From the NCBI GenBank assembly GCA_965211635.1, contig OZ242948.1, positions 2,054,938-2,118,937 of the forward strand: DNA of 64,000 nucleotides. Reading direction: 5' to 3'. Below, piece by piece: positions 6,610 through 64,000 of the stretch. The position numbers and the translations under genes are program-made. Each line of letters starts with the position of its first letter. Positions within the stretch are counted from its first letter, which is position 1. Source of the stretch: Dehalococcoidia bacterium. Its GTDB lineage: Bacteria > Chloroflexota > Dehalococcoidia > Bin125. Below the pieces are notes generated by a model. That model was not told the DNA's origin. It did not search any database and was given only the letters and a program-made list of their open reading frames with translations.

Positions 6610-6675
6610 CCGCTCCGCTTCCCCCTCTGGGGGAAGCTGTCCCGGAGGGACCGAAGGGGGGCGCTCCCGCGCCGA
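6610..6675. repeat. GC-rich modular palindromic repeat (family C copy) in the cysE-cysS intergenic spacer
   Basis: Modules CTTCCCCC-TCT-GGGGGAAG, CTGTCCC-GGA-GGGAC, GAAGGGGGGCGC. The same modules recur at 9655, 35705, 53590 and 61421. Confidence 0.6.
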
Positions 6676-12212: not shown

Positions 12213-12692
12213 ATGTCACGAGACGTTCTCGAACATCTCATCTGGAGCCTCAACCAGTCATTCCAGGAAAAGAAGGAACACTCCCTGATCCAAAACCTCT
12301 CCTCGGTCACCACAAACGACCTCGACCAAGTGGTCCCCGGCGGTGGACGGACCATGCGGGACCTGATCGTGCACTGCGCCGCCGTCAAGTTCATGCACGC
12401 CAATCACGCCTTCGGCGACGCCACCGCCACCTTCTGGAACACTTGGACAGGCGACGAACCGGCCAGCGACGCCTCGTTTGAAGACCTGCTCGAATGGCTT
12501 GAGCAGGCGCACGCGGAGGTGATCAAGGCCGTCAACGACCTCAGCGACGACCGCGAACTCGGCGCTAAGCGTCCGACCTACTGGGGCGAAGCGCTGGAGA
12601 CTCGCTACATCCTTGACGCCATCGCCGTCCACGACGTCTACCACGCCGGAGAAATCAACCACCTCCGCGCGCTCATCCACCAGGTCCACTAA
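12213..12692 (+). CDS. DinB/DUF664-superfamily (damage-inducible, four-helix bundle) protein
   Basis: 159 aa, MSRDVLEHLIWSLNQS...DLIVHCAAVKFMHANHAFGD...YHAGEINHLRALIHQ. Histidine-rich DinB_2-like pattern. GGGAG RBS upstream. Confidence 0.7.
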   Translation: MSRDVLEHLIWSLNQSFQEKKEHSLIQNLSSVTTNDLDQVVPGGGRTMRDLIVHCAAVKFMHANHAFGDATATFWNTWTGDEPASDASFEDLLEWLEQAHAEVIKAVNDLSDDRELGAKRPTYWGEALETRYILDAIAVHDVYHAGEINHLRALIHQVH

Positions 12693-12737: not shown

Positions 12738-12821
12738 GTAGGCGCGACCCTTGTGCTCGCCCGCGTGGTTCGGTGGTTCGCAGAGCGCGGAAACGGGCAA
12801 CCACAAGGGTCGCCCCTACAG
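12738..12821. repeat. MITE-like inverted-repeat element, family B (CTGTAGGGGCGACCCTTGTGGTCGCCC ... GGGCGACCACAAGGGTCGCCCCTACAG)
   Basis: Left arm GTAGGCGCGACCCTTGTGCTCGCCC. Right arm GGGCAACCACAAGGGTCGCCCCTACAG. The right end supplies the TAG stop of the M16 peptidase gene. Confidence 0.65.
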
Positions 12822-14114
12822 CCGCAGCATGTCCTGCAATCGCTCAGCCTCCCCCGACGGACCCACGATCGCCAGGCGCAACTCGTCCTCCAACAGGTAC
12901 TCATTCGCGACCCGTTGGATGTCTTCAAGGGTCACCGCCTGGTAGTCCTCGTAGACCTCATCAACCGTGCGAAGCTCTCCGTGCAGCAACGTCTGACCGC
13001 CGTTCCAAGCCGAGACCGCACGGCTGTCCTCCATGCCCATCAACATCCGACCCGCTGCCAGCCGCTTCGCCCGATCCAACTCCTCGGCCGGAACGCCCTC
13101 GCGCAGTCGCGACACCTCACCCAGCGTCGCCTCGATCGCCGTCTCCACATTGTCGGGATCCACCCCCATCGCCACCTGAATCGCGCCGCTGTCGCGGTAC
13201 ATCGCCAGCGACGCGCCGACATCGTACGCGAGTCCAAGCTCTTCCCGAACCTTGAGGAACAGCCGCGAACTCATCCCGTCGCCAAGCATCGCCGTCATCA
13301 GGCCCAGGGCGAATCGGTCAGGATGGCGCGAGGTCATGCCGGGTAAGCCGATCGTGACCTGGGACTGCTCGGTCTCCTTGATGCGGAGCGCGACTCGTTG
13401 ACCGTCGTCCGAGATGCCCGCTGCCAACCGTTCCCCAGCCTCGGCTTCCGTCCAGTCCCGCGTCAACTCCGACACGCGCGAGAGCACCGCTTCGGCATCG
13501 ACATCGCCCGCCACCGACACCAGCGTGTTGGCCGGCGAGTACTGCGCCGACCAGTAGGCGACCGTGTCTTCGTGACCAATCGCCTTGACCGACTCCGGCG
13601 TACCGGCGATATCTCGGCCCAACGGCGTGCCGCGCCACATGAGCTCGGCCATCAGCTCACCCACCAACTGGAACGGCGAATCTTCAATCTGCGCCAGTTC
13701 CTCCAGCACCACGGACCGCTCGCGCTCCAGTTCAGCCGCTTCGAGCCGTGGTCGGCAGACCATGTCCACGATCACGTCCACGGCGGTCTGCCAGTCTGGT
13801 CCCGGCACCTTGGCGTAGTAGACCGTCATCTCGCGGTCGGTCGCCGCGTTGATGTAGCCGCCCACGCCTTCAATCGCAATCGACAGGTCTGCTGCTGTCG
13901 GGTGCATCTCCGACCCCTTGAACAGGCAGTGTTCCAACAGGTGAGAGACGCCCGCCAGCTCCTCACGTTCGTACTGAGCGCCCGCGCCGACATAGAAGGA
14001 CACCGCGACCGAGCGCGCCGAGGCCATCGGCTCGGTGATCACTCGCAGTCCGGAATTGAGTACATCAATGCGCCGCGTCGCGGGCGCCGCGGCGGCCACT
14101 ACTCCGCACCCCAC
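12816..14114 (-). CDS. M16 family zinc peptidase (insulinase/PqqL-like)
   Basis: 432 aa with inverted zinc motif HLLEHCLFKGS (HxxEH) near the N-terminus. Stop codon lies inside a family-B repeat. Confidence 0.85.
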   Translation of the reverse strand: MGCGVVAAAAPATRRIDVLNSGLRVITEPMASARSVAVSFYVGAGAQYEREELAGVSHLLEHCLFKGSEMHPTAADLSIAIEGVGGYINAATDREMTVYYAKVPGPDWQTAVDVIVDMVCRPRLEAAELERERSVVLEELAQIEDSPFQLVGELMAELMWRGTPLGRDIAGTPESVKAIGHEDTVAYWSAQYSPANTLVSVAGDVDAEAVLSRVSELTRDWTEAEAGERLAAGISDDGQRVALRIKETEQSQVTIGLPGMTSRHPDRFALGLMTAMLGDGMSSRLFLKVREELGLAYDVGASLAMYRDSGAIQVAMGVDPDNVETAIEATLGEVSRLREGVPAEELDRAKRLAAGRMLMGMEDSRAVSAWNGGQTLLHGELRTVDEVYEDYQAVTLEDIQRVANEYLLEDELRLAIVGPSGEAERLQDMLRL

Positions 14115-24350: not shown

Positions 24351-24787
24351 CTCCCACCTCTCGAACCATGCGTCGAACCATGCGTCGAACCATCCGTCGA
24401 ACCATGCGCTTCGGCGTCGCGCATCAATCCTCGCACCAACCTGGCCAGAGTTGCGTCGAGGGTGCGGAAGTCAGCTTCCGCCGAACCATCTCTCGCCACC
24501 ACAACCACATCCAATCCTGCGCACTTCCCTTCCTGGTTGAGCCGACGCGCTGATTCACGCAAACGCCTTCTGATGCGATTCCTGACCACCGCTCCTCCCA
24601 GCCGGGAACTGATGGCAAAGCCGAACCGGCATGGGCCATCGAGCGAGTCTTCAGCGCGTTGAAGGGCCCTCAACGCCAGCACTCCGCTGGATCGGCGTCG
24701 ACCGTCCTGGAACACTGCGTCAAACTCCGACTTTCGTCGCAGACGCTGATCGGCACGCTTCATGGTCCGCACGGCCTGATCGTTCAC
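24347..24787 (-). CDS. rnpA: Ribonuclease P protein component
   Basis: 146 aa, basic, RRKSEFDAVFQDGRRRSSGVLALRALQ... Positioned between rpmH and yidD. Start may be at MKRADQRLRRK. Confidence 0.8.
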   Translation of the reverse strand: MNDQAVRTMKRADQRLRRKSEFDAVFQDGRRRSSGVLALRALQRAEDSLDGPCRFGFAISSRLGGAVVRNRIRRRLRESARRLNQEGKCAGLDVVVVARDGSAEADFRTLDATLARLVRGLMRDAEAHGSTDGSTHGSTHGSRGGS

Positions 24788-35704: not shown

Positions 35705-35852
35705 CTCACTCCCGCTGCCCTCCCCGCCTTCGCGGGGACAGGCTCTTGGGGGGAAGCTCCCGCGTAGCGGGTGAAGGGGGGACCGCCGACATCGGTGGCT
35801 GGCCGGACCCCCCTCTGCCTTCGGCATCTCCCCCCGCGCTGCGGGGGGAGAG
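35705..35852. repeat. GC-rich modular palindromic repeat (family C copy) between the GYD gene and tRNA-Thr(CGU)
   Basis: CCCCGC-CTTC-GCGGGG, CTCTTGGGGGGAAGCTCCCGCGTAGCGGGTGAAGGGGGGACC, CTCCCCCCGC-GCTG-CGGGGGGAG. Confidence 0.6.
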
Positions 35853-35897
35853 GTAGTTTGGGAGATGGCGCGCACCACGCTTGATGGACTGGCGTGC

Positions 35898-37032: not shown

Positions 37033-38451
37033 ATGGCTACCCTTGGCGACATCCAGAACCTGATCCAGGATCAGGGCATCCGTCGCGTTGATCTGTTGGT
37101 GACCGACCTGATCGGCCGCTGGCAGCACTTCAGCATTCCCGCGTCGAAGGTAGACGAGGACCTGGTCAACCGCGGACAGGGCTTCGACGGTTCCTCGCTG
37201 CGCGGCTTCCAGAGCATCGACGAATCGGACATGCTGCTGCGGCCGGACCTTGACTCGGCGCGGCTGGACCCGACCGAGACCGTGCCGACGCTGAAGTTCA
37301 TCTGCGACGTCCATGATCCGGTGACCGGCGACCGTTACAGCCGCGACCCGCGCTACGTGGCGACCAAGGCCGAGCAGCACATGATCGACTCGGGGATTGC
37401 CGATCAGGCCTTTTTCGGTCCGGAGCTTGAGTTCTTCCTGTTCGACCACGTCCAGTTCCAGATGTCGATCAACCAGGCCTTCTACGTCGTCGAGTCGGAC
37501 GAGGCAGACTGGAACAGCGGACGCGACGAGGACGAAAACAACCTCGGCTACAAGATCCCACCCAAGCAGGGCTACTCGCCGACCGCGCCGTTCGACACGC
37601 TGAGTGACATCCGCTGGGAGATGGCCGACGCGATGGAAGCGGTGGGGATGGAGTTGGAGGTGCACCACCACGAAGTCGCGACCGGCGGCCAGGGTGAGAT
37701 CGCGACGCGATTCAACACGCTGCGCAACAAGGCGGACGAGACCCAGTGGTACAAGCACATCGTGCGCAACGTGGCCAAGGCGAACGGCAAGTCGGCCACC
37801 TTCATGCCCAAGCCGCTCTACGGCGACAACGGCACCGGCATGCACTGCCACCAGTCGCTGTGGAAGGACGGCTCGCCGCTCTTCTACGAGTCCGGCCGGT
37901 ACGCCGATCTCTCCGACACCGCCCGACACTACATCGGCGGCCTGCTCAAGCACGGCTCGGCGCTGCTCGCATTCTGCGCGCCGACGACCAACTCCTACAA
38001 GCGCCTGGTGCCCGGCTTCGAGGCGCCGATCTACCTGGCCTTCTCACAGCGCAACCGCTCGGCGGCGGTCCGTATCCCGACCTACGAGACCTCGCCGAAC
38101 AGCAAGCGGATCGAGTTCCGCCCGCCCGACGCCTCGGCCAACACGTACTTGGCGTTCTCGGCGATGCTGATGGCCGGACTGGACGGGATCCGCAAGCGGA
38201 TCGAGCCGGACGACCCCGTCGACACCGACATCTACGAGTTGAGTCCTGAGGAAGCCGCCGGCATCCCTTCGGTCCCGCACTCGCTCGAAGGCTCGCTCCA
38301 GGCCCTCGCCGAAGACCACGACTTCCTGATGGAAGGCGGCGTCTTCACCCAGGATCTGATCGACGAGTACCAGGACTTCAAGCTGACGGAGGCGCGGGAC
38401 GTCTTCATGCACCCGGTCGCGGCGGAGTTCTTCCACTACTACCACATCTAG
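37033..38451 (+). CDS. glnA: Glutamine synthetase, type I
   Basis: 472 aa, MATLGDIQNLIQDQGIRRVDLLVTDLIGRWQHFS...; GS beta-grasp plus catalytic domain (FGPELEFFLFD, MPKPLYGDNGTGMHCHQSLW). Confidence 0.95.
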   Translation: MATLGDIQNLIQDQGIRRVDLLVTDLIGRWQHFSIPASKVDEDLVNRGQGFDGSSLRGFQSIDESDMLLRPDLDSARLDPTETVPTLKFICDVHDPVTGDRYSRDPRYVATKAEQHMIDSGIADQAFFGPELEFFLFDHVQFQMSINQAFYVVESDEADWNSGRDEDENNLGYKIPPKQGYSPTAPFDTLSDIRWEMADAMEAVGMELEVHHHEVATGGQGEIATRFNTLRNKADETQWYKHIVRNVAKANGKSATFMPKPLYGDNGTGMHCHQSLWKDGSPLFYESGRYADLSDTARHYIGGLLKHGSALLAFCAPTTNSYKRLVPGFEAPIYLAFSQRNRSAAVRIPTYETSPNSKRIEFRPPDASANTYLAFSAMLMAGLDGIRKRIEPDDPVDTDIYELSPEEAAGIPSVPHSLEGSLQALAEDHDFLMEGGVFTQDLIDEYQDFKLTEARDVFMHPVAAEFFHYYHI

Positions 38452-38504: not shown

Positions 38505-38572
38505 TTTGTAGGGGCAGCCCTTGTGGCTGCCCTCCCAGTCGGGCGGGCGACCACAAGGGTCGCCCCTACAGC
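38505..38572. repeat. MITE-like inverted-repeat element, family B, between the two glutamine synthetase genes
   Basis: TGTAGGGGCAGCCCTTGTGGCTGCCC ...18 nt... GGGCGACCACAAGGGTCGCCCCTACAG. The terminal CTGTAG/CTACAG are inverted. Confidence 0.7.
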
Positions 38573-38592: not shown

Positions 38593-39942
38593 ATGACCAG
38601 CCTTGATGCAGACCTTAACGCTCCACCGAACGAGCATCAGCACGTCCTGAACGCCTGCCGCGAACATGACGTTCGCTTCGTGCGGCTCTGGTTCACCGAC
38701 CTGCTGGGTCAACTGAAATCCGTGGCGATCACGATTGACGAGCTGCCGGCCGCGCTCGAAAAGGGCGTCGAGTTCGACGGCGCGTCGATCGAGGGATTCG
38801 CCCGACACGACGAGTCGGACATGGTGGCGCTTCCTGATCCGGACACGTTCGTGGTCCTGCCCTGGCGACCTGAGCAGCACCGCGTTGCACGGATGATCTG
38901 CGACATCCACCGGCGCAACGGCGAGCCGTTTGAGGGCGACCCACGCCGCGTGCTGCGCCGCCAGCTCGAGTCGGCGCAACAGCGCGGTTACACCTTCTAT
39001 GTCGCTCCGCAGATCGAGTACTTCTACTTCCGCGCGCCGGACGATCCGTCACCGCTGGACTCGGGCGGATACTTCGATCTCTCCCCGCTCGACACGGCGA
39101 CGGATCTGCGTCGGGAGACTGTGCTAACGCTGGAGGAGATGGGTATCGGGGTTGAGTCTTCGCATCACGAAGCGGCGCCCTCTCAGCACGAGATCGACCT
39201 TCGCTACACCGACGCGTTGACCATGGCCGACCAGGTGATGACCACGCGCCTGGTGGTCAAGGAGGTCGCCATCAAGCAAGGGGTACACGCGACGTTCATG
39301 CCCAAGCCGCTCAACGGCGTCAATGGCTCCGGGATGCACGTGTACCTCTCGCTCTGGGACCATGAGCAGAATCTGTTCTACGAGGAAGGCGGCGGTCTCT
39401 CTGAGACTGCGCGTTCCTTCCTTGCCGGTCTGCTTGCCTACACGCCGCAGTTCACGTTGATCACCAACCAGTGGTCGAACAGTTACAAGCGCCTCGCGCC
39501 GGGGACCGAGGCGCCTGTGTACCTGACCTGGTCACACGCGAATCAGTCGGACCTGGTCCGCATTCCCGAGTACGAGCCGGGCGACGCGGAGTCGAGCCGG
39601 CTGGAGTATCGCGGCGCCGACTCGGCGACGAATCCGTACCTCGCGTTTTCGGTCTTCCTGGCGGCCGGTCTGCGCGGCATTGACGAGGGCTTGGCCCCGC
39701 CGCCGGCGGCCGAGGACAACGTCTTCGAACTGACTTCGACCCAGCGGGCGGCTCGCAGCATTCTCGAGATGCCAACCACCCAAGGTCGGGCGATCGAAGC
39801 CTTTGCGGCATCGGAGTTGATGAAGACGATTCTGGGAGAGTACGTCTGGACGACGGTGTTGGAGAACAAGCGGCTGGAGTGGAACGAGTACCGCTCACAG
39901 GTCACTGACTACGAGCTGCGTCGATACCTGGCCGTGCTGTAA
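38593..39942 (+). CDS. Glutamine synthetase, type I (second, shorter paralogue)
   Basis: Start MTSLDADLNAPPNEHQHVLNACREHDVRFVRLWFTDLLGQLKSV...; MPKPLNGVNGSGMHVYLSLW. The 24 upstream codons in the ORF track (38521..) are a family-B repeat, not coding. Confidence 0.9.
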   Translation: MTSLDADLNAPPNEHQHVLNACREHDVRFVRLWFTDLLGQLKSVAITIDELPAALEKGVEFDGASIEGFARHDESDMVALPDPDTFVVLPWRPEQHRVARMICDIHRRNGEPFEGDPRRVLRRQLESAQQRGYTFYVAPQIEYFYFRAPDDPSPLDSGGYFDLSPLDTATDLRRETVLTLEEMGIGVESSHHEAAPSQHEIDLRYTDALTMADQVMTTRLVVKEVAIKQGVHATFMPKPLNGVNGSGMHVYLSLWDHEQNLFYEEGGGLSETARSFLAGLLAYTPQFTLITNQWSNSYKRLAPGTEAPVYLTWSHANQSDLVRIPEYEPGDAESSRLEYRGADSATNPYLAFSVFLAAGLRGIDEGLAPPPAAEDNVFELTSTQRAARSILEMPTTQGRAIEAFAASELMKTILGEYVWTTVLENKRLEWNEYRSQVTDYELRRYLAVL

Positions 39943-48289: not shown

Positions 48290-48450
48290 AGGGCCACTGA
48301 TGCCGGGAAATCGAGATTCCCGCCTCCGCGGGAATGACGGAGGTGGAGGCGGGAATGACGGAGGTGGAGGCGGGAATGACGGAGGTGGAGGCGGGAATGA
48401 CGGAGGTGGAGGCGGGAATGCGGGAGGTGGGGGCGGGAATGACGGAGATG
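48290..48450. repeat. Family A hairpin followed by ~5.5 tandem copies of a 21-bp unit (GGAGGTGGAGGCGGGAATGAC), in the nuoD-nuoH spacer
   Basis: GATTCCCGCCTCCGCGGGAATGACGG then GGAGGTGGAGGCGGGAATGAC x5 (last copies degenerate). The antisense ORF 48215..48457 translating as PPPPPSF repeats is an artefact of this array. Confidence 0.7.
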
Positions 48451-48456
48451 GTGGCA

Positions 48457-49620
48457 TTAGCGGTCAACCTCGCAGAGCACGATGTCAATCGAGCCGAGGG
48501 CGACGACGGCGTCGGCGAGGTATGTGTTGAGCACCTGCGGCCTGAGTGACGAGAGGTTGTGAAAGCATGGCGAGCGCATCTTCACACGCCAGGGCTTGTC
48601 GGTGCCGTCGGAGACCATGTAGATGCCGTACTCGCCGCGTGGGTTTTCCTGGCGCATGTAGATCTCGCCGGGTTCCGGGCGCAAGCGGGCGGGCATGCGT
48701 TCGGGCATGATCGGGCCTGAGGTCGGCATCTGCTCGAGCGCCTGGCGGAGGATGGTGACGGACTGGCGCATCTCTTCGAGACGCACGAGGTAGCGGTCGT
48801 AGACGTCGCCGCGCTCGCCCACAGGGATTTCCCAGTGGAAGCGGTCGTAAATCGAGTAGGGCTCGTCGACGCGCAGGTCGAAGGGCACGCCGGAGGCGCG
48901 CAGCATGGGGCCGGTGACGCCGTAGCCAATCGCCTCGTCGGCGGTCATTGCGCCGATGTCGCGGCAGCGGGCGACGAAGACCTCGTTGTTGGTCATCAGC
49001 TCGTCGACGTCGGTGATGCCGACTTCGACCTGGTCGAGGACCCAGTGCGAGTCTTCGACAAAGGTCTCGTGCGGCTCCCAGGCGAGTCCGCCGACGCGGA
49101 AGTAGTTGTACATGATGCGGTCGCCGCAGACGGCCTCGAACAGGTCCTGGATACGCTCGCGCTCCTTGAAGGTCCAGGTGAAGGCGGTGCCGAAGTAGCC
49201 GACGTCGGTGCCGAAGGCGCCCATGAACATGAAGTGCGAAAGGATGCGGTTGAGCTCGGCCAGGATCAGTCGGACGTACTCGGCGCGTTCGGGGATCTCG
49301 ATGCCGGCGAGGCGCTCGACGGCGTTGACGTAGACCCACTCGGAGTTGAAGGCGGCGAGGTAGTCGGTGCGGTCCTGGTAGCCGAGCGCGCCTCGGTAGT
49401 CGAGGTTTTCGGAGAGCTTCTCACCGCCGCGGTGCATGTAACCGATGTAAGGGATGGCGTCCTTAACGATCTCGCCGTCGACGGTGAGGACCATGCGGAA
49501 CACGCCGTGGGTCGCGGGGTGCTGGGGCCCGATGTTGATGTTCATGTCGACGGTCTCGAACTCGCGCTCGACGACAACGGGTTCGGTCAGGACTTCGCCT
49601 TCGAAGGTTTGCTGGACCAC
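48457..49620 (-). CDS. nuoD: NADH-quinone oxidoreductase subunit D (49 kDa)
   Basis: 387 aa, NIGPQHPATHGVFRMVLTVDGEIV... Confidence 0.9.
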   Translation of the reverse strand: MVQQTFEGEVLTEPVVVEREFETVDMNINIGPQHPATHGVFRMVLTVDGEIVKDAIPYIGYMHRGGEKLSENLDYRGALGYQDRTDYLAAFNSEWVYVNAVERLAGIEIPERAEYVRLILAELNRILSHFMFMGAFGTDVGYFGTAFTWTFKERERIQDLFEAVCGDRIMYNYFRVGGLAWEPHETFVEDSHWVLDQVEVGITDVDELMTNNEVFVARCRDIGAMTADEAIGYGVTGPMLRASGVPFDLRVDEPYSIYDRFHWEIPVGERGDVYDRYLVRLEEMRQSVTILRQALEQMPTSGPIMPERMPARLRPEPGEIYMRQENPRGEYGIYMVSDGTDKPWRVKMRSPCFHNLSSLRPQVLNTYLADAVVALGSIDIVLCEVDR

Positions 49621-51246: not shown

Positions 51247-51636
51247 TTAGTTGCGTTGCCAGTCGAAGACGCCCTTGCGCCAAGCGTAGGCCAGCGCGAT
51301 CAGCAGGGTTCCGATGAACAGCACCATCTGCCAGAGAATCACCTTGCCGAACTCTGGCCCGTCCATCAGACCGAGGAACGAAACGGCCCAGGGCAAGAGG
51401 AAGACGACCTCGACATCGAAGACGAGGAACAGCAGGGCGTATGTGTAGTAGCGCACGTGAACCTGGGCCCAGTTGCGCCCGATCGGCAGCATGCCGCACT
51501 CGTAGACCTGTCCCTTGAGCGCGGTGCGGCGCTGAGGCGCGAGCAGCTTGGTCGCCAACAGCGCGGTGAGGACGAGCATGATCCCGACCGGGATCGCGAC
51601 CAGCACTGCGCCGTAGTTCTCGAACAGTTCAGACAC
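51247..51636 (-). CDS. nuoA: NADH-quinone oxidoreductase subunit A
   Basis: 129 aa, YECGMLPIG...[15 protein letters not shown]. Confidence 0.9.
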
Positions 51637-51764: not shown

Positions 51765-51842
51765 CTGTAGGGGCGCCCCTTGTGCGTGCCCGCGGCATAC
51801 ATCGCCGTCCTACAGGCAGGGCGCCCACAAGGGGCGCCGCTA
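51765..51842. repeat. MITE-like inverted-repeat element, family B (divergent copy), between nuoA and the GNAT gene
   Basis: CTGTAGGGGCGCCCCTTGTGCGTGCCC ... TCCTACAGGCAGGGCGCCCACAAGGGGCGCCGCTAC. Overlaps the GNAT stop codon. Confidence 0.6.
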
Positions 51843-52334
51843 CCGGGACCCATCAGGCAGATCGCGTTCGTACTTGAACTCGACCGTGTCGTTGACGTCG
51901 TCTAGCTTGCGGGTGTCGGACTTGACGTAACCAAGGCGCTCGTAGAGGCGGTGGGCGTCTTCGAAGCGGGTGTCGGACCAGAGTTCAATACGCGAGGCGC
52001 CCTGCTCCCGCGCCCAGTCGACCGCGGTTTCGAAGAGGCGGCGACCAAGACCCTTGCCGCGCAGGTGGGCGTCGAGATAGAGGCGGTGCAGCTCGACGGT
52101 CGGTCCATCGATCCGATTTGCGGCGATCGACCCGACGACCTCGCCCGTGTCGTCGCGCATCACCCACATTGCACCGATCGGTGCGCGGTAGGGAAAGGCG
52201 TGCTCCTCGGACAGCAGGTCCCAGAACTCGTCCTCGGGGTCCCAGATGAAGCCGTATTCGTCGAACACGCGGTGGATCAGTTGGATTACTTCCGGACAGG
52301 CGTCGTGGCCGGTCGGTTCAATCGGGAAGGTCAT
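51840..52334 (-). CDS. GNAT family N-acetyltransferase
   Basis: 164 aa, RLYLDAHLRGKGLGRRLFETAVDWAREQGASRIELWSD (acetyl-CoA binding motif A). Stop codon overlaps a family-B repeat. Confidence 0.8.
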   Translation of the reverse strand: MTFPIEPTGHDACPEVIQLIHRVFDEYGFIWDPEDEFWDLLSEEHAFPYRAPIGAMWVMRDDTGEVVGSIAANRIDGPTVELHRLYLDAHLRGKGLGRRLFETAVDWAREQGASRIELWSDTRFEDAHRLYERLGYVKSDTRKLDDVNDTVEFKYERDLPDGSR

Positions 52335-53589: not shown

Positions 53590-53930
53590 CCCTCTCTCTT
53601 CCCTCTCCCCCCGCTCCGCGGGGGGAGCTGCCGAAGGCAGTGAGGGGTCCGAGAAAGTGGCAGTTGGCGGCGCCCCCCTTCAGTCCCCCCGCCGACGGAG
53701 ACCTTAGCGAAACTCGTCGGCCGCCGGGTTCGGTATGTTTTCCTGTTCGCTGACCGAATAGCCGGATGGATTCCCGCCTGCGCGGGAATGACGGAATGTG
53801 CGATTACGCGCAGGTCTCCTTACGCGGGGGCAGGCTCTACGGGACAGCTTCCCTCCAGGGGGAAGCGGGTTTCGCGCAATCGGACACGAACAAGCCCCCG
53901 ACGCTGCGCGTCGGGGGCTTGTGTTGATGC
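53590..53930. repeat. Composite ~340-bp array of family C and family A repeat modules filling the CoA-transferase/groEL intergenic region
   Basis: CTCCCCCCGC-TCCG-CGGGGGGAG, GGCGCCCCCC..., GGATGGATTCCCGCCTGCGCGGGAATGACGG (53768), CTACGGGACAGCTTCCCTCCAGGGGGAAG, CCCCCGACGC-TGC-GCGTCGGGGG. Confidence 0.65.
53880..53920. terminator. GC-rich hairpin, candidate bidirectional intrinsic terminator between the CoA-transferase gene and groEL
   Basis: AAGCCCCCGACGC-TGC-GCGTCGGGGGCTT, a 13-bp perfect stem. T-rich runs on both flanks (minus-strand reading: ...GCUUGUUCGUGU directly after groEL stop). Confidence 0.4.
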
Positions 53931-56139: not shown

Positions 56140-56400
56140 CATTCCCACCGTATCCGTCACTCCATCGCAGGCGGGAATCCATCCGGCACAGCGGTTGCGT
56201 GAGGAACCGGCTGTCGCCTTCCAATCTTAACTGCAGTCGAGCAGGCGCGACAGTCGGCGCTGCGTACGGAGGTCGTCCTGCATGGATTCCCGCCTGCGCG
56301 GGAATGACGGAGGGAGCGCGGGAATGACGGAGGGGGCGCGGGAATGACGGGGAGGGGGGCGCGGGAATGACGGAGGGGGGCGCGGGAGCGATGTGCGGTT
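56140..56400. repeat. Inverted pair of family A units flanking ~95 bp, followed by four tandem ~20-bp units (GCGCGGGAATGACGGAGGGG)
   Basis: Left unit inverted (CGTCATTCCCACCGTATCCGTCACTCCATCGCAGGCGGGAATCCATCC). Right unit direct (GGATTCCCGCCTGCGCGGGAATGACGG at 56284). Then AGGGAGCGCGGGAATGACGG x4. Confidence 0.65.
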
Positions 56401-56514
56401 CATCCACCGAGGCTTCGTGTACAGCCTTGACAACCGCGGCGCGGGACTGATCGATGCGGGGTCGTGGGCTAAGGTGACCGCATACGCCGACGAGCCATGC
56501 GGGGGTGCGCTGCG

Positions 56515-61286: not shown

Positions 61287-64000
61287 GTGACCACCTCTGA
61301 ATTCGACCTGTCCATCCTCAGCGAACTGAGCGGCGCCTACGACGCCTCAGTCGTCGAGGATCCGATCTACGCCTACTGGGAAGACAATGGCTGGTTCCGA
61401 CCGAGCGGACCTTCTCTCTCCGCCTCGGCGGAGCCTGTCCGCGCGGAGGCGGGGAGGGAGGCGACGCAGGTAGAGGGGGATTCGGTCGCGGGATCCAGAG
61501 GGACCCCCTCTGTCCCTACGGGACAGCTCCCCCTGCCAGGGGGAGCGGAGGCTCGGAAGCCGTTCACGGTGATCATGCCGCCGCCCAATGTGACGGGAGT
61601 GTTGCACCTGGGTCATGCAGTGACGCTGACGATCGAGGACGTATTGATCCGTTGGCACAGAATGCTCGGCGAGCCGACGCTCTGGTTGCCGGGGCTGGAC
61701 CATGCGGGAATCGCGACGCAAAGCGTGGTCGAGCAGCAACTCGCGCGCGAGGGGATGACGCGGCACGACCTCGGTCGTGACGCCTTCGAGGAACGTGTCT
61801 GGGATTGGGTCGGCGTGACCCGACCGCGGATCACCGCGCAGGCTCGGCGGATGGGCGCGTCGTGTGACTGGGAGCGGACAGCGTTCACGCTCGACCCGAC
61901 GCCGCGCGCGGCGGTGCGCAAGACGTTCGTCGATCTGTTCAAGGACGGCAAGATCTATCGCGGCGCGCGGATCATCAACTGGGATCCGCAGATGCTGACG
62001 GCGCTCTCGGATGTCGAAGTCGAGTACGAAGAGGAAGACGGGTACCTCTGGCACGTGCGCTATCCATTCGTGGACGAGCGCGGGAACGAACTCGACGACG
62101 GCGTGGTGATTGCCACAACGCGTCCCGAAACGATTCCGGCCGACGTGGCGATCGCGGTGCATCCGGACAGCGAGCGCTGGCAACCGCACCTGGGCCGGCG
62201 CGTGCGACTGCCGCTGCGCGGCTTCAGTCGGCTGATCCCGCTGGTCGCGGACAGCGCGGTCGACCTGGAGTTCGGCACCGGGGCGCTGAAGATCACGCCC
62301 GGTCACGATCAGCTCGACTTCGAGATCGGCGAGCGGCACGGGCTGGAGCCGATCCGCGTCGTTGACTGGGACGGCTCGATGACGGCCGAGGCCGGACTGT
62401 ACGCCGGGATGGATCGGGACGGAGCTCGCACCCTGGTCGCGCAGCATCTCGAAGAGGACGGCTACCTGGTTGAGACCGAGGCGCACGTACACAACGTGGG
62501 GCACTCGCAGCGCTCGGGCGTCGTGGTGGAGCCGCTGGTCTCGAACCAGTGGTTCGTCGACACCGACGATCTGGCGGCCGAGGCGGCGCGGGTCGTGCGC
62601 GAGGGCGAAGTCAAGATTGTGCCCGAGCGCTCGACCTCGGTCTACCTGCAGTGGATGGACAACATCCGTCCCTGGTGCATTTCGCGCCAGCTCTGGTGGG
62701 GACACCGGATTCCTGCCTGGTACTGCACCGTCTGCGACGCCGCGGCGATCATTCGCGGCGACGACGGAGAGATCACGATCGACGAGGACTCGCATCCGAT
62801 AGTCGAGATGGAGGATCCGACAGCCTGCCCGACCTGCGGCAGGTCGGATCTGGTCCAGGATCCGGATGTGCTGGACACGTGGTTCTCGTCCGGCCTGTGG
62901 ACGCATTCGACGCTTGGTTGGCCCGAGACGAGCGACGACCTGTCGCGCTTCTATCCCTCGTCGGTGATGGAGACGGGCTACGACATCCTCTTTTTCTGGG
63001 TCGCGCGAATGATCATGCTGGGCTGCTTCAACATGGGCGAGCCGCCCTTCCACACGGTCTACCTGCATGGTTTGGTCCGCGACGCGCAGGGTCGGAAGAT
63101 GTCGAAGTCGCTGGACAACGTGGTCGATCCGCTGGAGAAGGCGGACCAGTACGGGATGGACGCGCTGCGCTTCACGCTTGCGACCGGCTCGACGCCGGGC
63201 AACGACATGCGCCTCACGGATGAGCGGCTTGAGGGGTCGCGCAACTTCGCCAACAAGCTCTGGAACGGGGCGAGGTTTGTCCTCGGCGAGATTGCGAATG
63301 CGGCGGATGTCGCCCAGGCTTCGTCCGGCGTAGGGGCAACCCTTGTGGTTGCCCGTCCGGACGAAGATGCGACCAACGATACGAACGGGCGACCACAAGG
63401 GTCGCCCCTACAGGAGCCGTTGGAGGACCGTTGGATTCTGTCGCGACTGCAGGCAGTAACGGACTCGGTGGATGAGTTGCTGCGCCAGTTCCAACTCGGC
63501 GAGGCGGGGCGGCAGATCCAGGACTTTCTCTGGGGCGAGTTCTTTGACTGGTACGTCGAGGCGAGCAAGGTGAGGCTGCGCAACGGGGATGCGTCGCCGC
63601 TGCCCGTGTTGGTCACGGTGCTGGACGGTGGATTGCGGCTGCTGCATCCGTGGATGCCGTTCGTGACCGAGGCGATCTGGCAACAGCTTCGGCCGTACGT
63701 ATCTGGGGAAGAGACGACGGCGTTGATCGGAGCTCGCTATCCGCAGCCCGGTGACCGGGAGAGGGACCTTGAGGCGGAAGCGGCCTTTAGCGCGGTGCAG
63801 GAGATCGTCACGGCCGTGCGCCAGGTGCGCGCCGATTACCGCGTCCAGGCCGGACAGTGGGCGGAGGCGTACGTCCTTCCGCGGATTGAGGTCGCCAATG
63901 CGGTCAGCGCCTCGGCGCCGATCGTTGAGGTCCTCTCGAGAGCGCGCCCGCTGACCATCGTCTCGAATCGTGAAGAGGCGCCGACGGAGCAGATTGCGTC
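61287..64000 (+). CDS. valS: Valine--tRNA ligase (5' ~900 codons; runs off window end) carrying two in-frame repeat-element insertions
   Basis: Own translation from GTG ~61287 (GGAG RBS 8 nt upstream): TTSEFDLSILSELSGAYDASVVEDPIYAYWEDNGWFRPS-[insert]-KPFTVIMPPPNVTGVLHLGHAVTLT... (HIGH), later GRKMSKSLDNVVDP (KMSKS) ~63090. Not in the ORF track because it has no stop inside the window. Confidence 0.9.
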   Translation, partial: MTTSEFDLSILSELSGAYDASVVEDPIYAYWEDNGWFRPSGPSLSASAEPVRAEAGREATQVEGDSVAGSRGTPSVPTGQLPLPGGAEARKPFTVIMPPPNVTGVLHLGHAVTLTIEDVLIRWHRMLGEPTLWLPGLDHAGIATQSVVEQQLAREGMTRHDLGRDAFEERVWDWVGVTRPRITAQARRMGASCDWERTAFTLDPTPRAAVRKTFVDLFKDGKIYRGARIINWDPQMLTALSDVEVEYEEEDGYLWHVRYPFVDERGNELDDGVVIATTRPETIPADVAIAVHPDSERWQPHLGRRVRLPLRGFSRLIPLVADSAVDLEFGTGALKITPGHDQLDFEIGERHGLEPIRVVDWDGSMTAEAGLYAGMDRDGARTLVAQHLEEDGYLVETEAHVHNVGHSQRSGVVVEPLVSNQWFVDTDDLAAEAARVVREGEVKIVPERSTSVYLQWMDNIRPWCISRQLWWGHRIPAWYCTVCDAAAIIRGDDGEITIDEDSHPIVEMEDPTACPTCGRSDLVQDPDVLDTWFSSGLWTHSTLGWPETSDDLSRFYPSSVMETGYDILFFWVARMIMLGCFNMGEPPFHTVYLHGLVRDAQGRKMSKSLDNVVDPLEKADQYGMDALRFTLATGSTPGNDMRLTDERLEGSRNFANKLWNGARFVLGEIANAADVAQASSGVGATLVVARPDEDATNDTNGRPQGSPLQEPLEDRWILSRLQAVTDSVDELLRQFQLGEAGRQIQDFLWGEFFDWYVEASKVRLRNGDASPLPVLVTVLDGGLRLLHPWMPFVTEAIWQQLRPYVSGEETTALIGARYPQPGDRERDLEAEAAFSAVQEIVTAVRQVRADYRVQAGQWAEAYVLPRIEVANAVSASAPIVEVLSRARPLTIVSNREEAPTEQIA
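61421..61556. repeat. Family C modular repeat lying in-frame inside the valS coding sequence
   Basis: GAGCCTGTCCGCGCGGAGGCGGGGAGGGAGG..., GGACCCCCTCTGTCCCTACGGGACAGCTCCCCCTGCCAGGGGGAGCGG; same modules as the intergenic copies. Confidence 0.65.
63328..63414. repeat. Family B inverted-repeat element lying in-frame inside valS
   Basis: GTAGGGGCAACCCTTGTGGTTGCCC ...32 nt... GGGCGACCACAAGGGTCGCCCCTACAG; translated as ...GVGATLVVARPDEDATNDTNGRPQGSPLQ... Confidence 0.7.

What the first reader, a model, noticed from the sequence alone, without database searches (positions are those of the whole stretch)
38505..38572. Family B: 65-90 bp MITE-like elements with terminal inverted repeats CTGTAG...CTACAG around a hairpin-forming 21-mer
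Four copies occur in 64 kb: 12738, 38505, 51765 and 63328. All share the same architecture: two inverted copies of GGGCGACC-ACAAG-GGTCGCCC (itself an 8-bp stem hairpin), separated by a variable 10-35 nt spacer and capped by CTGTAG / CTACAG.

Three copies sit at gene ends or starts: between dinB-like and the M16 peptidase, between the two glnA genes, and between nuoA and the GNAT gene. This fits either a transcription-terminator/REP-like role or a non-autonomous transposable element. I could not find target-site duplications by eye.
Basis: seen in the sequence. Interest (0 to 1): 0.6.

Follow-up and report, generated by a model that had tools for sequence, protein, structure and literature searches.

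The report
GTAG-tagged REP doublets (REPINs)
The four elements are pairs of small GTAG-headed DNA hairpins (REP doublets, or REPINs), a well-described kind of miniature mobile DNA moved by a RAYT transposase. They are a real but ordinary example; one copy sits in frame inside the essential valS gene.

Summary
The window holds exactly eight copies of a 25-nt unit, GTAG-GGGCnnCC-CTTGT-GGnnGCCC, arranged as four inverted doublets with the GTAG heads pointing outward. The doublets are at 12738-12819, 38508-38569, 51767-51843 and 63330-63411, with spacers of 12-32 nt. About 0.01 matches are expected by chance.

The two variable stem positions co-vary, and each doublet folds into one long hairpin. 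This is the architecture of GTAG-tagged REPs and REPINs. The same 25-mer occurs in genomes of more than 15 phyla. Elsewhere it flanks genes for REP-associated tyrosine transposases (RAYT/TnpA-REP), or lies in frame inside them.

Close relatives have empty sites, so the elements come and go. There are no target-site duplications, no T-tracts and no Rfam family.

- Doublet 4 is not intergenic. It lies in frame in a permissive loop of valS.
- The TAG of the GTAG head supplies the stop codon of two neighbouring genes.

Both behaviours, and REPs inside RAYT genes, are already published. The verdict is a new member of a known kind, of low-to-moderate interest. The cognate RAYT of this genome could not be looked for.

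The parts
12738..12819 (.). Doublet 1 (82 bp). Left unit 12738-12762 (+) is GTAGGCGCGACCCTTGTGCTCGCCC. A 32-nt spacer follows. Right unit 12795-12819 (-) is GTAGGGGCGACCCTTGTGGTTGCCC. It lies between the convergent DinB_2 gene (12213-12692 +) and the M16 peptidase gene (12816-14114 -).
   Evidence: 42.2 and 48.3 bits; fold -29 to -36 kcal/mol, z -4.0 and -7.3; flanking genes
12816..12818 (-). Stop codon TAG of the M16 peptidase ORF. It is the TAG of the GTAG head of the right unit of doublet 1.
   Evidence: (…QDMLRL*)
38508..38569 (.). Doublet 2 (62 bp), the copy named in the finding. Left unit 38508-38532 (+) is GTAGGGGCAGCCCTTGTGGCTGCCC. A 12-nt spacer follows. Right unit 38545-38569 (-) is GTAGGGGCGACCCTTGTGGTCGCCC. 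It lies between two tandem glnA paralogues (37033-38451 + and 38593-39942 +).
   Evidence: 47.0 and 51.1 bits; fold -28/-29 kcal/mol, z -6.0/-6.6; genes
51767..51843 (.). Doublet 3 (77 bp). Left unit 51767-51791 (+) is GTAGGGGCGCCCCTTGTGCGTGCCC. A 27-nt spacer follows. Right unit 51819-51843 (-) is GTAGCGGCGCCCCTTGTGGGCGCCC. It lies downstream of the GNAT gene (51840-52334 -) and upstream of nuoA (51247-51636 -). It is absent from the orthologous site of relative L187.
   Evidence: 44.5 and 42.8 bits; empty site shown
51840..51842 (-). Stop codon TAG of the GNAT gene. It is the TAG of the GTAG head of the right unit of doublet 3. The relative L187 ends the same protein one residue earlier with its own TGA.
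   Evidence: …ERDLPDGSR* against …ERDLSDST*
63330..63411 (.). Doublet 4 (82 bp). Left unit 63330-63354 (+) is GTAGGGGCAACCCTTGTGGTTGCCC. A 32-nt spacer follows. Right unit 63387-63411 (-) is GTAGGGGCGACCCTTGTGGTCGCCC. It lies in frame inside valS and is translated as VGATLVVARPDEDATNDTNGRPQGSPLQ.
   Evidence: 49.3 and 51.5 bits; fold -31/-32 kcal/mol, z -7.6; loop alignment
61290..64000 (+). valS (valine-tRNA ligase), the host gene of doublet 4. It runs off the window end. The doublet sits in the variable linker between NKLWNG…GEI and EDRWILSRL.
   Evidence: (best homologues 86% identical, PF00133/PF08264)

Best explanation
Each 25-nt unit is a GTAG-tagged repetitive extragenic palindrome (REP). 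On the strand that reads GTAG, the unit folds into an 8-bp GC-rich stem (GGGCnnCC/GGnnGCCC, with a GGG/CCC foot) and a CTTGT loop. Two units in inverted orientation, heads outward, with a spacer that is canonically 32 nt, make a REPIN. A REPIN is a non-autonomous element that can also fold as one long hairpin.

Such elements are bound as folded single-stranded DNA, then cut and rejoined, by a REP-associated HUH/tyrosine transposase (RAYT, also called TnpA-REP). Here the enzyme would be of the subclass whose genes themselves carry REPs in frame (Quentin's subclass 2.4), encoded elsewhere in the genome. This mechanism leaves no target-site duplication.

The unit has a stop codon in only one of six frames. 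Copies therefore survive in intergenic DNA, as the last codon of a gene (GTAG donating TAG), and in permissive protein loops such as the valS linker.

- **Shown here:** the architecture, stem covariation, folding, multi-copy dispersal, presence/absence among relatives, and the association of this exact unit with RAYT genes in other genomes.
- **Inferred:** that this genome encodes the cognate RAYT, and the cleavage and strand-transfer steps, which are taken from published in-vitro work on E. coli, Stenotrophomonas and Marinomonas enzymes.
- **Possible but untested:** any secondary effect of the transcribed hairpins on mRNA 3' ends.
For: **Copy number.** There are eight units against 0.01-0.28 expected by chance, and exactly eight by covariance model.

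**Architecture.** GTAG is directly 5' of the stem in 8 of 8 units. All units are in +/- doublets. The doublets fold at -28 to -36 kcal/mol, z -4 to -7.6.

**Stem covariation.**
- In 14 units, 96.4% of cells are paired and 13 cells show double changes; 0 of 500 shuffles reach this.
- In about 240 units from other genomes, the two free stem positions are GG/CC 52, GA/TC 42, AA/TT 37, AC/GT 31, GC/GC 17 and AG/CT 14.
- G·T pairs outnumber A·C mismatches on the GTAG strand by roughly 4 to 1.

**Mobility.**
- The syntenic relative L187 (ValRS 86% identical) has no unit in 22.8 kb and an empty nuoA/GNAT site.
- The valS loop is empty in L184, carries a family-B doublet in L185 and L186, and carries other repeats in further relatives.

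**RAYT link.**
- In L069, a protein that passes NCBIfam's cut-off for 'REP-associated tyrosine transposase' (82.1 bits against a cut-off of 80) is flanked by 3 + 4 doublets containing this unit.
- Of the 120 best homologues of the RAYT L147:106-753, 101 carry at least one family-B unit peptide in frame between the HUH and Tyr motifs (left VGAxLVxA in 85, right AxTRxAPT in 91; most carry both).

**Literature.**
- GTAG REPs include Chloroflexi; dimers, TAG donation and intragenic copies are described (PMC3733652).
- The REPIN concept is from PMC3116915.
- Subclass 2.4 has a 3-G·C foot and REPs inside tnpA-REP genes (PMC6006769).
- Recognition of the ssDNA hairpin plus GTAG, and cleavage at CT/CA, are in PMC8266576.
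Against: - No RAYT is encoded in the 64-kb window. The source genome is not in the searchable collections: the best ValRS hit is 86% identical and an exact look-up failed. The cognate enzyme is therefore unverified for this organism.
- Spacers of different copies are no more alike than shuffled sequence (0.48 against 0.45 ± 0.09), while units are about 90% identical. This does not fit simple recent copy-and-paste of whole REPINs.
- RAYTs of a sister subclade (L181-L183) carry a different palindrome and no family-B unit. The link therefore holds only for one subclade.
- Transposition itself was not observed.
Confidence: 0.85

Rival explanations
1. The hairpins are primarily host regulatory elements, either transcription terminators or 3'-end mRNA stabilisers placed after genes. 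On this view, any resemblance to mobile REPs is secondary.
For: - Three of four copies lie directly downstream of a gene.
- The stems are strong.
- The excess of G·T over A·C pairs on one strand would fit function as RNA. Di Nocera et al. argue that many REPs are transcribed.
- Units are conserved while spacers drift, which suggests selection on the hairpins.
Against: - No T-run follows any of the hairpins, and the terminator scan finds nothing at the elements.
- One copy is inside an essential ORF, where termination would be lethal.
- Syntenic relatives do without them.
- The identical 25-mer occurs in many phyla and inside RAYT genes. A locally evolved terminator would not do this.
- G·T pairs are also stable in ssDNA.

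This role is not exclusive of the REP reading. It could be an exapted side-effect.
Confidence: 0.1
2. They are classical MITEs: deletion derivatives of an IS element with terminal inverted repeats, moved by a DDE transposase.
For: They are of similar size (62-82 bp), have inverted termini and are dispersed as multiple copies.
Against: - There is no target-site duplication at any of the four copies.
- The 'TIR' is an autonomous hairpin unit. Elsewhere it occurs singly, in tandem, and paired with a different unit.
- No IS with these ends was seen.
- The only transposase gene recurrently adjacent to the units in the loci examined is a Y1/HUH RAYT.
Confidence: 0.02
3. They are a structured non-coding RNA gene or cis-regulatory RNA family.
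For: The hairpin is stable and co-varying.
Against: - No Rfam family reaches threshold. The only hits are miRNA-precursor hairpins at 19-29 bits against gathering scores of 62-100.
- The element is symmetric, the same on both strands.
- It occurs in ORFs, after genes and inside transposase genes.
Confidence: 0.03

Closest known systems
GTAG-tagged REP super-family (Di Nocera et al. 2013, PMC3733652)
   Same: It shares the unpaired GTAG at the 5' foot of a 20-40 bp GC-rich palindrome and the units lying close together in opposite orientation. It is located between unidirectional and convergent genes and has G·T pairs in the stems. The TAG of GTAG is used as a stop codon, and occasional copies lie entirely inside ORFs. 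The family is reported in Chloroflexi.
   Different: This particular consensus (GGGCnnCC-CTTGT-GGnnGCCC) was not found in the paper's main text. Its supplements were not searched.
REPIN-RAYT systems (Bertels & Rainey 2011, PMC3116915)
   Same: REP doublets are inverted repeats with a spacer that fold into a hairpin. Doublets predominate over singlets, and the elements are proximal to RAYT genes (here).
   Different: Here the spacer sequence is not conserved between copies; only its length is. The two arms are systematically different at the two variable stem pairs. The RAYT of this genome was not seen.
TnpA-REP / TnpA-Y1 subclass 2.4 REPtrons (Quentin et al. 2018, PMC6006769)
   Same: It matches the 'canonical long REP' whose stem foot is three G·C pairs. 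REPs are inserted in frame within the tnpA-REP gene between the HuH and Tyr motifs, and the subclass is scattered over many phyla. Here 101 of 120 RAYT homologues carry at least one family-B unit peptide at that place, most of them both.
   Different: Assignment of these RAYTs to subclass 2.4 rests on the shared features, not on a phylogeny with the authors' reference set.
E. coli REP/BIME and TnpA-REP (YafM)
   Same: It shares the GTAG head, the hairpin, the alternating orientation and recognition as folded ssDNA by a HUH enzyme. E. coli YafM, with its sequence recalled from memory, detects the L069 RAYT at E = 2e-8.
   Different: E. coli REPs are imperfect palindromes with a conserved bulge and conserved linker motifs, and belong to another RAYT group. 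The stems here are perfect or nearly so.
Rickettsia palindromic elements (RPE)
   Same: Both are palindromic repeats found in frame inside genes for functional proteins. Here the gene is valS. The parallel is drawn in PMC3733652.
   Different: No sequence relationship was tested. RPEs are longer, AT-rich and have no known RAYT.

Membership tests
REP, GTAG super-family | Short (20-40 bp) palindromic unit forming a GC-rich stem-loop | tested here: met
   The unit is 25 nt with an 8-bp stem and a 5-nt loop. In the stem, 96.4% of cells are paired, with double compensatory changes at two pairs.
REP, GTAG super-family | Conserved unpaired GTAG tetranucleotide at the 5' foot of the stem | tested here: met
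   8 of 8 window units have it. Of 14 aligned units, 13 have GTAG and one has GTGG.
REP, GTAG super-family | High copy number dispersed through the genome | tested here: inconclusive
   There are 8 units in 64 kb against 0.01 expected. The rest of the genome is not available. Other genomes show several separate loci each.
REP, GTAG super-family | Predominantly extragenic, between unidirectional or convergent genes | tested here: met
   Three of four doublets qualify: one lies between convergent genes and two between unidirectional genes. The fourth is intragenic but in frame.
REPIN | Two REPs in inverted orientation with a short spacer, able to fold as one hairpin | tested here: met
   All four doublets qualify, at -28 to -36 kcal/mol and z -4 to -7.6.
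REPIN | Doublets over-represented relative to singlets | tested here: met
   8 of 8 units in the window are in doublets. In other genomes, 72 of 237 units pair with a like unit and many others pair with a different unit type.
REPIN-RAYT system | A cognate RAYT (HUH + catalytic Tyr, Y1_Tnp) in the same genome | not testable with these tools
   There is no RAYT in the window.
REPIN-RAYT system | RAYT genes physically associated with this REP type | tested here: met
   The L069 RAYT is flanked by 3 + 4 doublets. Six of the 120 genome stretches of up to 8 kb fetched around a unit contain RAYT ORFs in 5 loci. In the RAYT subclade, 101 of 120 members carry at least one family-B unit peptide in frame, most of them both.
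TnpA-REP subclass 2.4 REP (Quentin 2018) | Long canonical REP whose stem foot is three consecutive G·C pairs; REP copies inserted in frame in tnpA-REP between HuH and Y | tested here: met
   The GGG…CCC foot is invariant or nearly so. Embedded copies are shown.
MITE (DDE-type) | Terminal inverted repeats flanked by a target-site duplication | tested here: not met
   There are no direct repeats at the four junctions.
Intrinsic (Rho-independent) terminator | GC-rich hairpin immediately followed by a T/U run | tested here: not met
   No terminator-like site is found at any of the three intergenic doublets.
Any Rfam RNA family | Match at the family's gathering score | tested here: not met
   Only three tRNAs are found in the window. 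The sub-threshold hits are miRNA hairpins only.

The most novel reading that the evidence does not exclude
The same 25-nt REP is kept almost base for base in genomes of more than 15 phyla, including genomes of 33-48% G+C and contigs classed as viral. A complete doublet of it is carried in frame inside the gene of its own RAYT subclade. RAYT plus embedded REPIN could therefore be a self-contained unit. On this reading the internal copy acts as the master that reseeds REPINs after horizontal transfer, and selection on the units (not the spacers) keeps them recognisable. That would contrast with the prevailing picture of strictly vertical, lineage-specific REPIN-RAYT pairs.
Probability: 0.2. Interest if true: 0.55.

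Novelty: new member of a known kind. Interest (0 to 1): 0.25.

Why it matters
For annotation, these repeats explain three things in this Chloroflexota genome: odd extra peptides in essential proteins (valS here), TAG stop codons at gene ends, and likely assembly breaks. Recognising them prevents spurious small-ORF calls such as VGATLVVA or GRPQGSPLQ peptides.

For biology, the locus gives a clean natural example of REPIN gain, loss and replacement at one permissive protein loop among close relatives. It also extends the GTAG-REP / subclass-2.4 RAYT system into uncultured, probably sponge-associated Chloroflexota. It opens no new mechanism.

Tried and rejected
- **Source contig.** An exact look-up of a window protein found nothing. 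The best ValRS relative is only 86% identical, so the genome is not in the collections.
- **RAYT in a close relative.** I tried matching the contig lengths of RAYT hits to those of ValRS relatives. There was no coincidence.
- **RAYT in the window.** A RAYT profile run against all six-frame ORFs of the window found none.
- **Flanks of three L147a-type RAYT genes.** These genes are not flanked by family-B units. They carry a different 'double-foot' palindrome, GTAGGGGCGGTTCGCGAACCGCCCCTAC, so they are cognate to another REP type.
- **Stop-free-frame test.** I used the test to ask how many units in other genomes are intragenic. It was uninformative because high-GC DNA has long open frames everywhere.
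- **Generic GTAG-hairpin scan.** The window shows no excess over shuffles apart from family B.
- **Rejected readings.** Terminator, Rfam RNA, segmental duplication (flanks and spacers unrelated), and CRISPR or tandem array (spacing irregular, units inverted).

Full report
**1. Observation**

The sequence at 38505-38572 and at the three other sites is as described. Each site has a left unit reading GTAG-GGGCnnCC-CTTGT-GGnnGCCC, a spacer, and the reverse complement of a second unit ending in CTAC.

- From GTAG to CTAC, the doublets span 12738-12819, 38508-38569, 51767-51843 and 63330-63411. The spacers are 32, 12, 27 and 32 nt.
- The 21-mer core with up to 3 mismatches gives 6 matches against 0.01 expected. 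A pattern that leaves the inner stem free gives 7 matches against 0.28 expected.
- A covariance model built from 14 units finds exactly eight units in the window at 42-51 bits. The next candidate scores 17.7 bits and is a chance partial match inside an ORF.
- GTAG is present in all eight units.

**2. Anatomy**

The unit's 8-bp stem is supported by covariation. In 14 units (8 from the window, 6 from relatives), 96.4% of cells are paired. The two inner pairs show 13 double-change cells across the types AU, GC, CG and GU, and no shuffle out of 500 reaches these values.

About 240 further units were fetched with a pattern that leaves those two positions free. Their combinations are overwhelmingly complementary: GG/CC 52, GA/TC 42, AA/TT 37, AC/GT 31, GC/GC 17 and AG/CT 14. 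On the GTAG strand, G·T pairs outnumber A·C mismatches by roughly four to one. This points to one functional single strand.

Each doublet also folds as one long hairpin, at -28 to -36 kcal/mol with z-scores of -4 to -7.6 on either strand. No direct repeats flank the doublets.

**3. Context in the window**

- Doublet 1 lies between the convergent DinB_2 and M16-peptidase genes.
- Doublet 2 lies between two tandem glnA paralogues.
- Doublet 3 lies downstream of a GNAT gene and upstream of nuoA.

In doublets 1 and 3, the stop codon of the minus-strand gene is the TAG of the right unit's GTAG head. For GNAT, the orthologue in a relative ends one residue earlier with its own TGA.

Doublet 4 is not intergenic. 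It lies in frame in valS and is read as VGATLVVARPDEDATNDTNGRPQGSPLQ, between the conserved NKLWNG…GEI and EDRWILSRL segments. The unit has a stop in only one of its six frames, as the sequence shows directly.

**4. Mobility**

ValRS homologues show that this linker is short in distant relatives (about 60% identity). Among the closest relatives it is variably occupied:
- by a family-B-like peptide in P0004, P0009 and P0010;
- by peptides derived from other repeat families, such as RGEMPKAEG and GPLSRSATAPPEG;
- or by nothing.

At the DNA level, L185 and L186 carry 82-bp family-B doublets with 32-nt spacers at this loop. L184 is empty, and L187 carries a different repeat.

L187 is syntenic with the window from nuoB to valS. 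It has no family-B unit in 22.8 kb and an empty site between nuoA and GNAT. The elements are therefore gained, lost or replaced on the time-scale that separates genomes with 80-86% identical ValRS.

**5. Relatives elsewhere and the enzyme**

The pattern GTAGGGGCNNCCCTTGTGGNNGCCC has 21 fixed bases.

- The hits include Chloroflexota, Acidobacteriota, Latescibacterota, Bacteroidota, several proteobacterial classes, Planctomycetota, Firmicutes, Gemmatimonadota and others.
- Several genomes contribute more than one locus.
- The 25-mer stands out unchanged in genomes of 33-48% G+C.

Six ORFs in five of the 120 genome stretches match a RAYT profile. In L069, a protein that passes NCBIfam's cut-off for 'REP-associated tyrosine transposase' (82.1 bits against 80) and Pfam Y1_Tnp is flanked by three doublets upstream and four downstream. 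Each of these doublets pairs a family-B unit with a second unit type.

The RAYT L147:106-753 contains a family-B doublet in frame. Of its 120 best homologues, 101 carry at least one family-B unit peptide, the left unit read as VGAxLVxA (85) or the right as AxTRxAPT (91), between the HUH motif and the Tyr helix; most carry both.

A sister subclade (2869 proteins at E ≤ 1e-10, many labelled RayT by JGI) carries RGGSRTAPT at the same place. This peptide is encoded by the perfect palindrome GTAGGGGCGGTTCGCGAACCGCCCCTAC.

**6. What is already known**

All these features are in the literature.
- Di Nocera et al. 2013 defined the GTAG REP super-family in eight phyla including Chloroflexi. They reported units in opposite orientation, location between unidirectional and convergent ORFs, G·T pairs, GTAG termini providing TAG stop codons, and REPs entirely within ORFs, which they compared with Rickettsia RPEs.
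- Bertels and Rainey 2011 defined REPINs.
- Quentin et al. 2018 described TnpA-Y1 subclass 2.4. [quoted passage not shown] It has canonical long REPs with a three-G·C foot and 'double-foot' REPs, and REPs inserted in frame in the tnpA-REP gene between HuH and Y.
- Corneloup et al. 2021 showed that TnpA-REP enzymes recognise folded single-stranded REPs strand-specifically through GTAG and the hairpin, and cleave at CT or CA.

**7. Mechanism**

The most likely account is that these are REPINs mobilised by a subclass-2.4-type RAYT acting on folded ssDNA, without target duplication. Copies persist wherever they are tolerated.

I put this at 0.85. The architecture, covariation, polymorphism and RAYT association in other genomes are shown. 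The presence of the enzyme in this genome and the chemistry are inferred.

A role of the transcribed hairpins at mRNA 3' ends is possible. It is not supported as a classical terminator, because no T-tract is present.

**8. Open point**

Units are about 90% identical between copies. Spacers are no more similar than shuffled sequence (0.48 against 0.45 ± 0.09), although their length of 32 nt recurs.

At the valS loop, the units are better conserved (92-100%) than the flanking coding DNA (67-85%), with a compensatory double change in the left stem. Either the copies are old and only the units are under selection or homogenised, or the units move singly. This was not resolved.

**9. Verdict**

This is a real feature, correctly spotted and essentially correctly interpreted. 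It is a new member of a known kind (GTAG REP / REPIN, cognate to subclass-2.4 RAYTs). Interest is low to moderate.

The cross-phylum constancy of the 25-mer, together with its residence inside its own transposase gene, is the only aspect that might repay further work.

Noticed in passing
window 61427-61550 (inside valS, N-terminal part): A second in-frame insertion in valS (…GPSLSASAEPVRAEAGREATQVEGDSVAGSRGTPSVPTGQLPLPGGAEA…) is made of other GC-rich repeat families; these are arms I1, I3, I4 and I18. Close homologues have only about 10 residues here. The window's ValRS therefore carries repeat-derived peptides at two loops.
   Followed up: partly
window 33084, 48312, 53766, 55608, 56153 (-), 56282; tandem arrays 48307-48474 and 56298-56402: This is another repeat family, ATGGATTCCCGCCTGCGCGGGAATGACGGA, with the hairpin TTCCCGC-CTGC-GCGGGAA and no GTAG head. 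It is sometimes followed by 20-21-nt tandem repeats of GCGGGAATGACGGAGGTGGAG.
   Followed up: no
window 35804-35853 / 53602-53651; 6613-6659 / 61504-61550; 35713-35745 / 61431-61463: These are further GC-rich inverted-repeat families, such as CCTCTCCCCCCGC…GCGGGGGGAG…GCCGAAGGCAG. The peptide of one of them (GEMPKAEG) fills the valS linker in the closest relatives, in place of the family-B doublet. Different repeat families therefore alternate at one protein loop.
   Followed up: partly
L181:4287-4314, L182:4284-4311 and 2802-2825, L183:4275-4302: RAYT genes of a sister subclade contain the perfect 'double-foot' palindrome GTAGGGGCGGTTCGCGAACCGCCCCTAC in frame, encoding RGGSRTAPT. It is sometimes present in 2-3 tandem copies in homologues. 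This is already described for subclass 2.4 by Quentin et al. 2018.
   Followed up: yes
L139 (33% GC), L066 (40% GC), L131 (45% GC), L082 (46% GC); L001-L060: The GC-rich 25-mer occurs unchanged in AT-rich genomes (Marinamargulisbacteria, Bacteroides, Chryseobacterium, Rheinheimera) and in 60 contig stretches classed as viral. Many hits lie within about 100 bp of a contig end, as expected if assemblies break at a multi-copy repeat.
   Followed up: partly
window doublets, L185:2909-2990, L186:11915-11996, L160:2641-2706: The spacer length (32 nt) recurs, but the spacer sequence is not conserved between copies while the units are. Left and right arms differ systematically: the right arm is mostly of the GA/TC type and the left arm is variable.
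   Followed up: partly
window 37033-38451 and 38593-39942: Two tandem glutamine synthetase paralogues share an 80%-identical 69-nt stretch. They are separated only by doublet 2.
   Followed up: no
window 24361-24408: There is a short tandem repeat of a 12-nt unit, TCGAACCATGCG, in about four copies (family D20).
   Followed up: no
L182:2512-4561: Two RAYT paralogues lie 1 kb apart, with a PIN-domain gene between them and a DDE transposase downstream.
   Followed up: no
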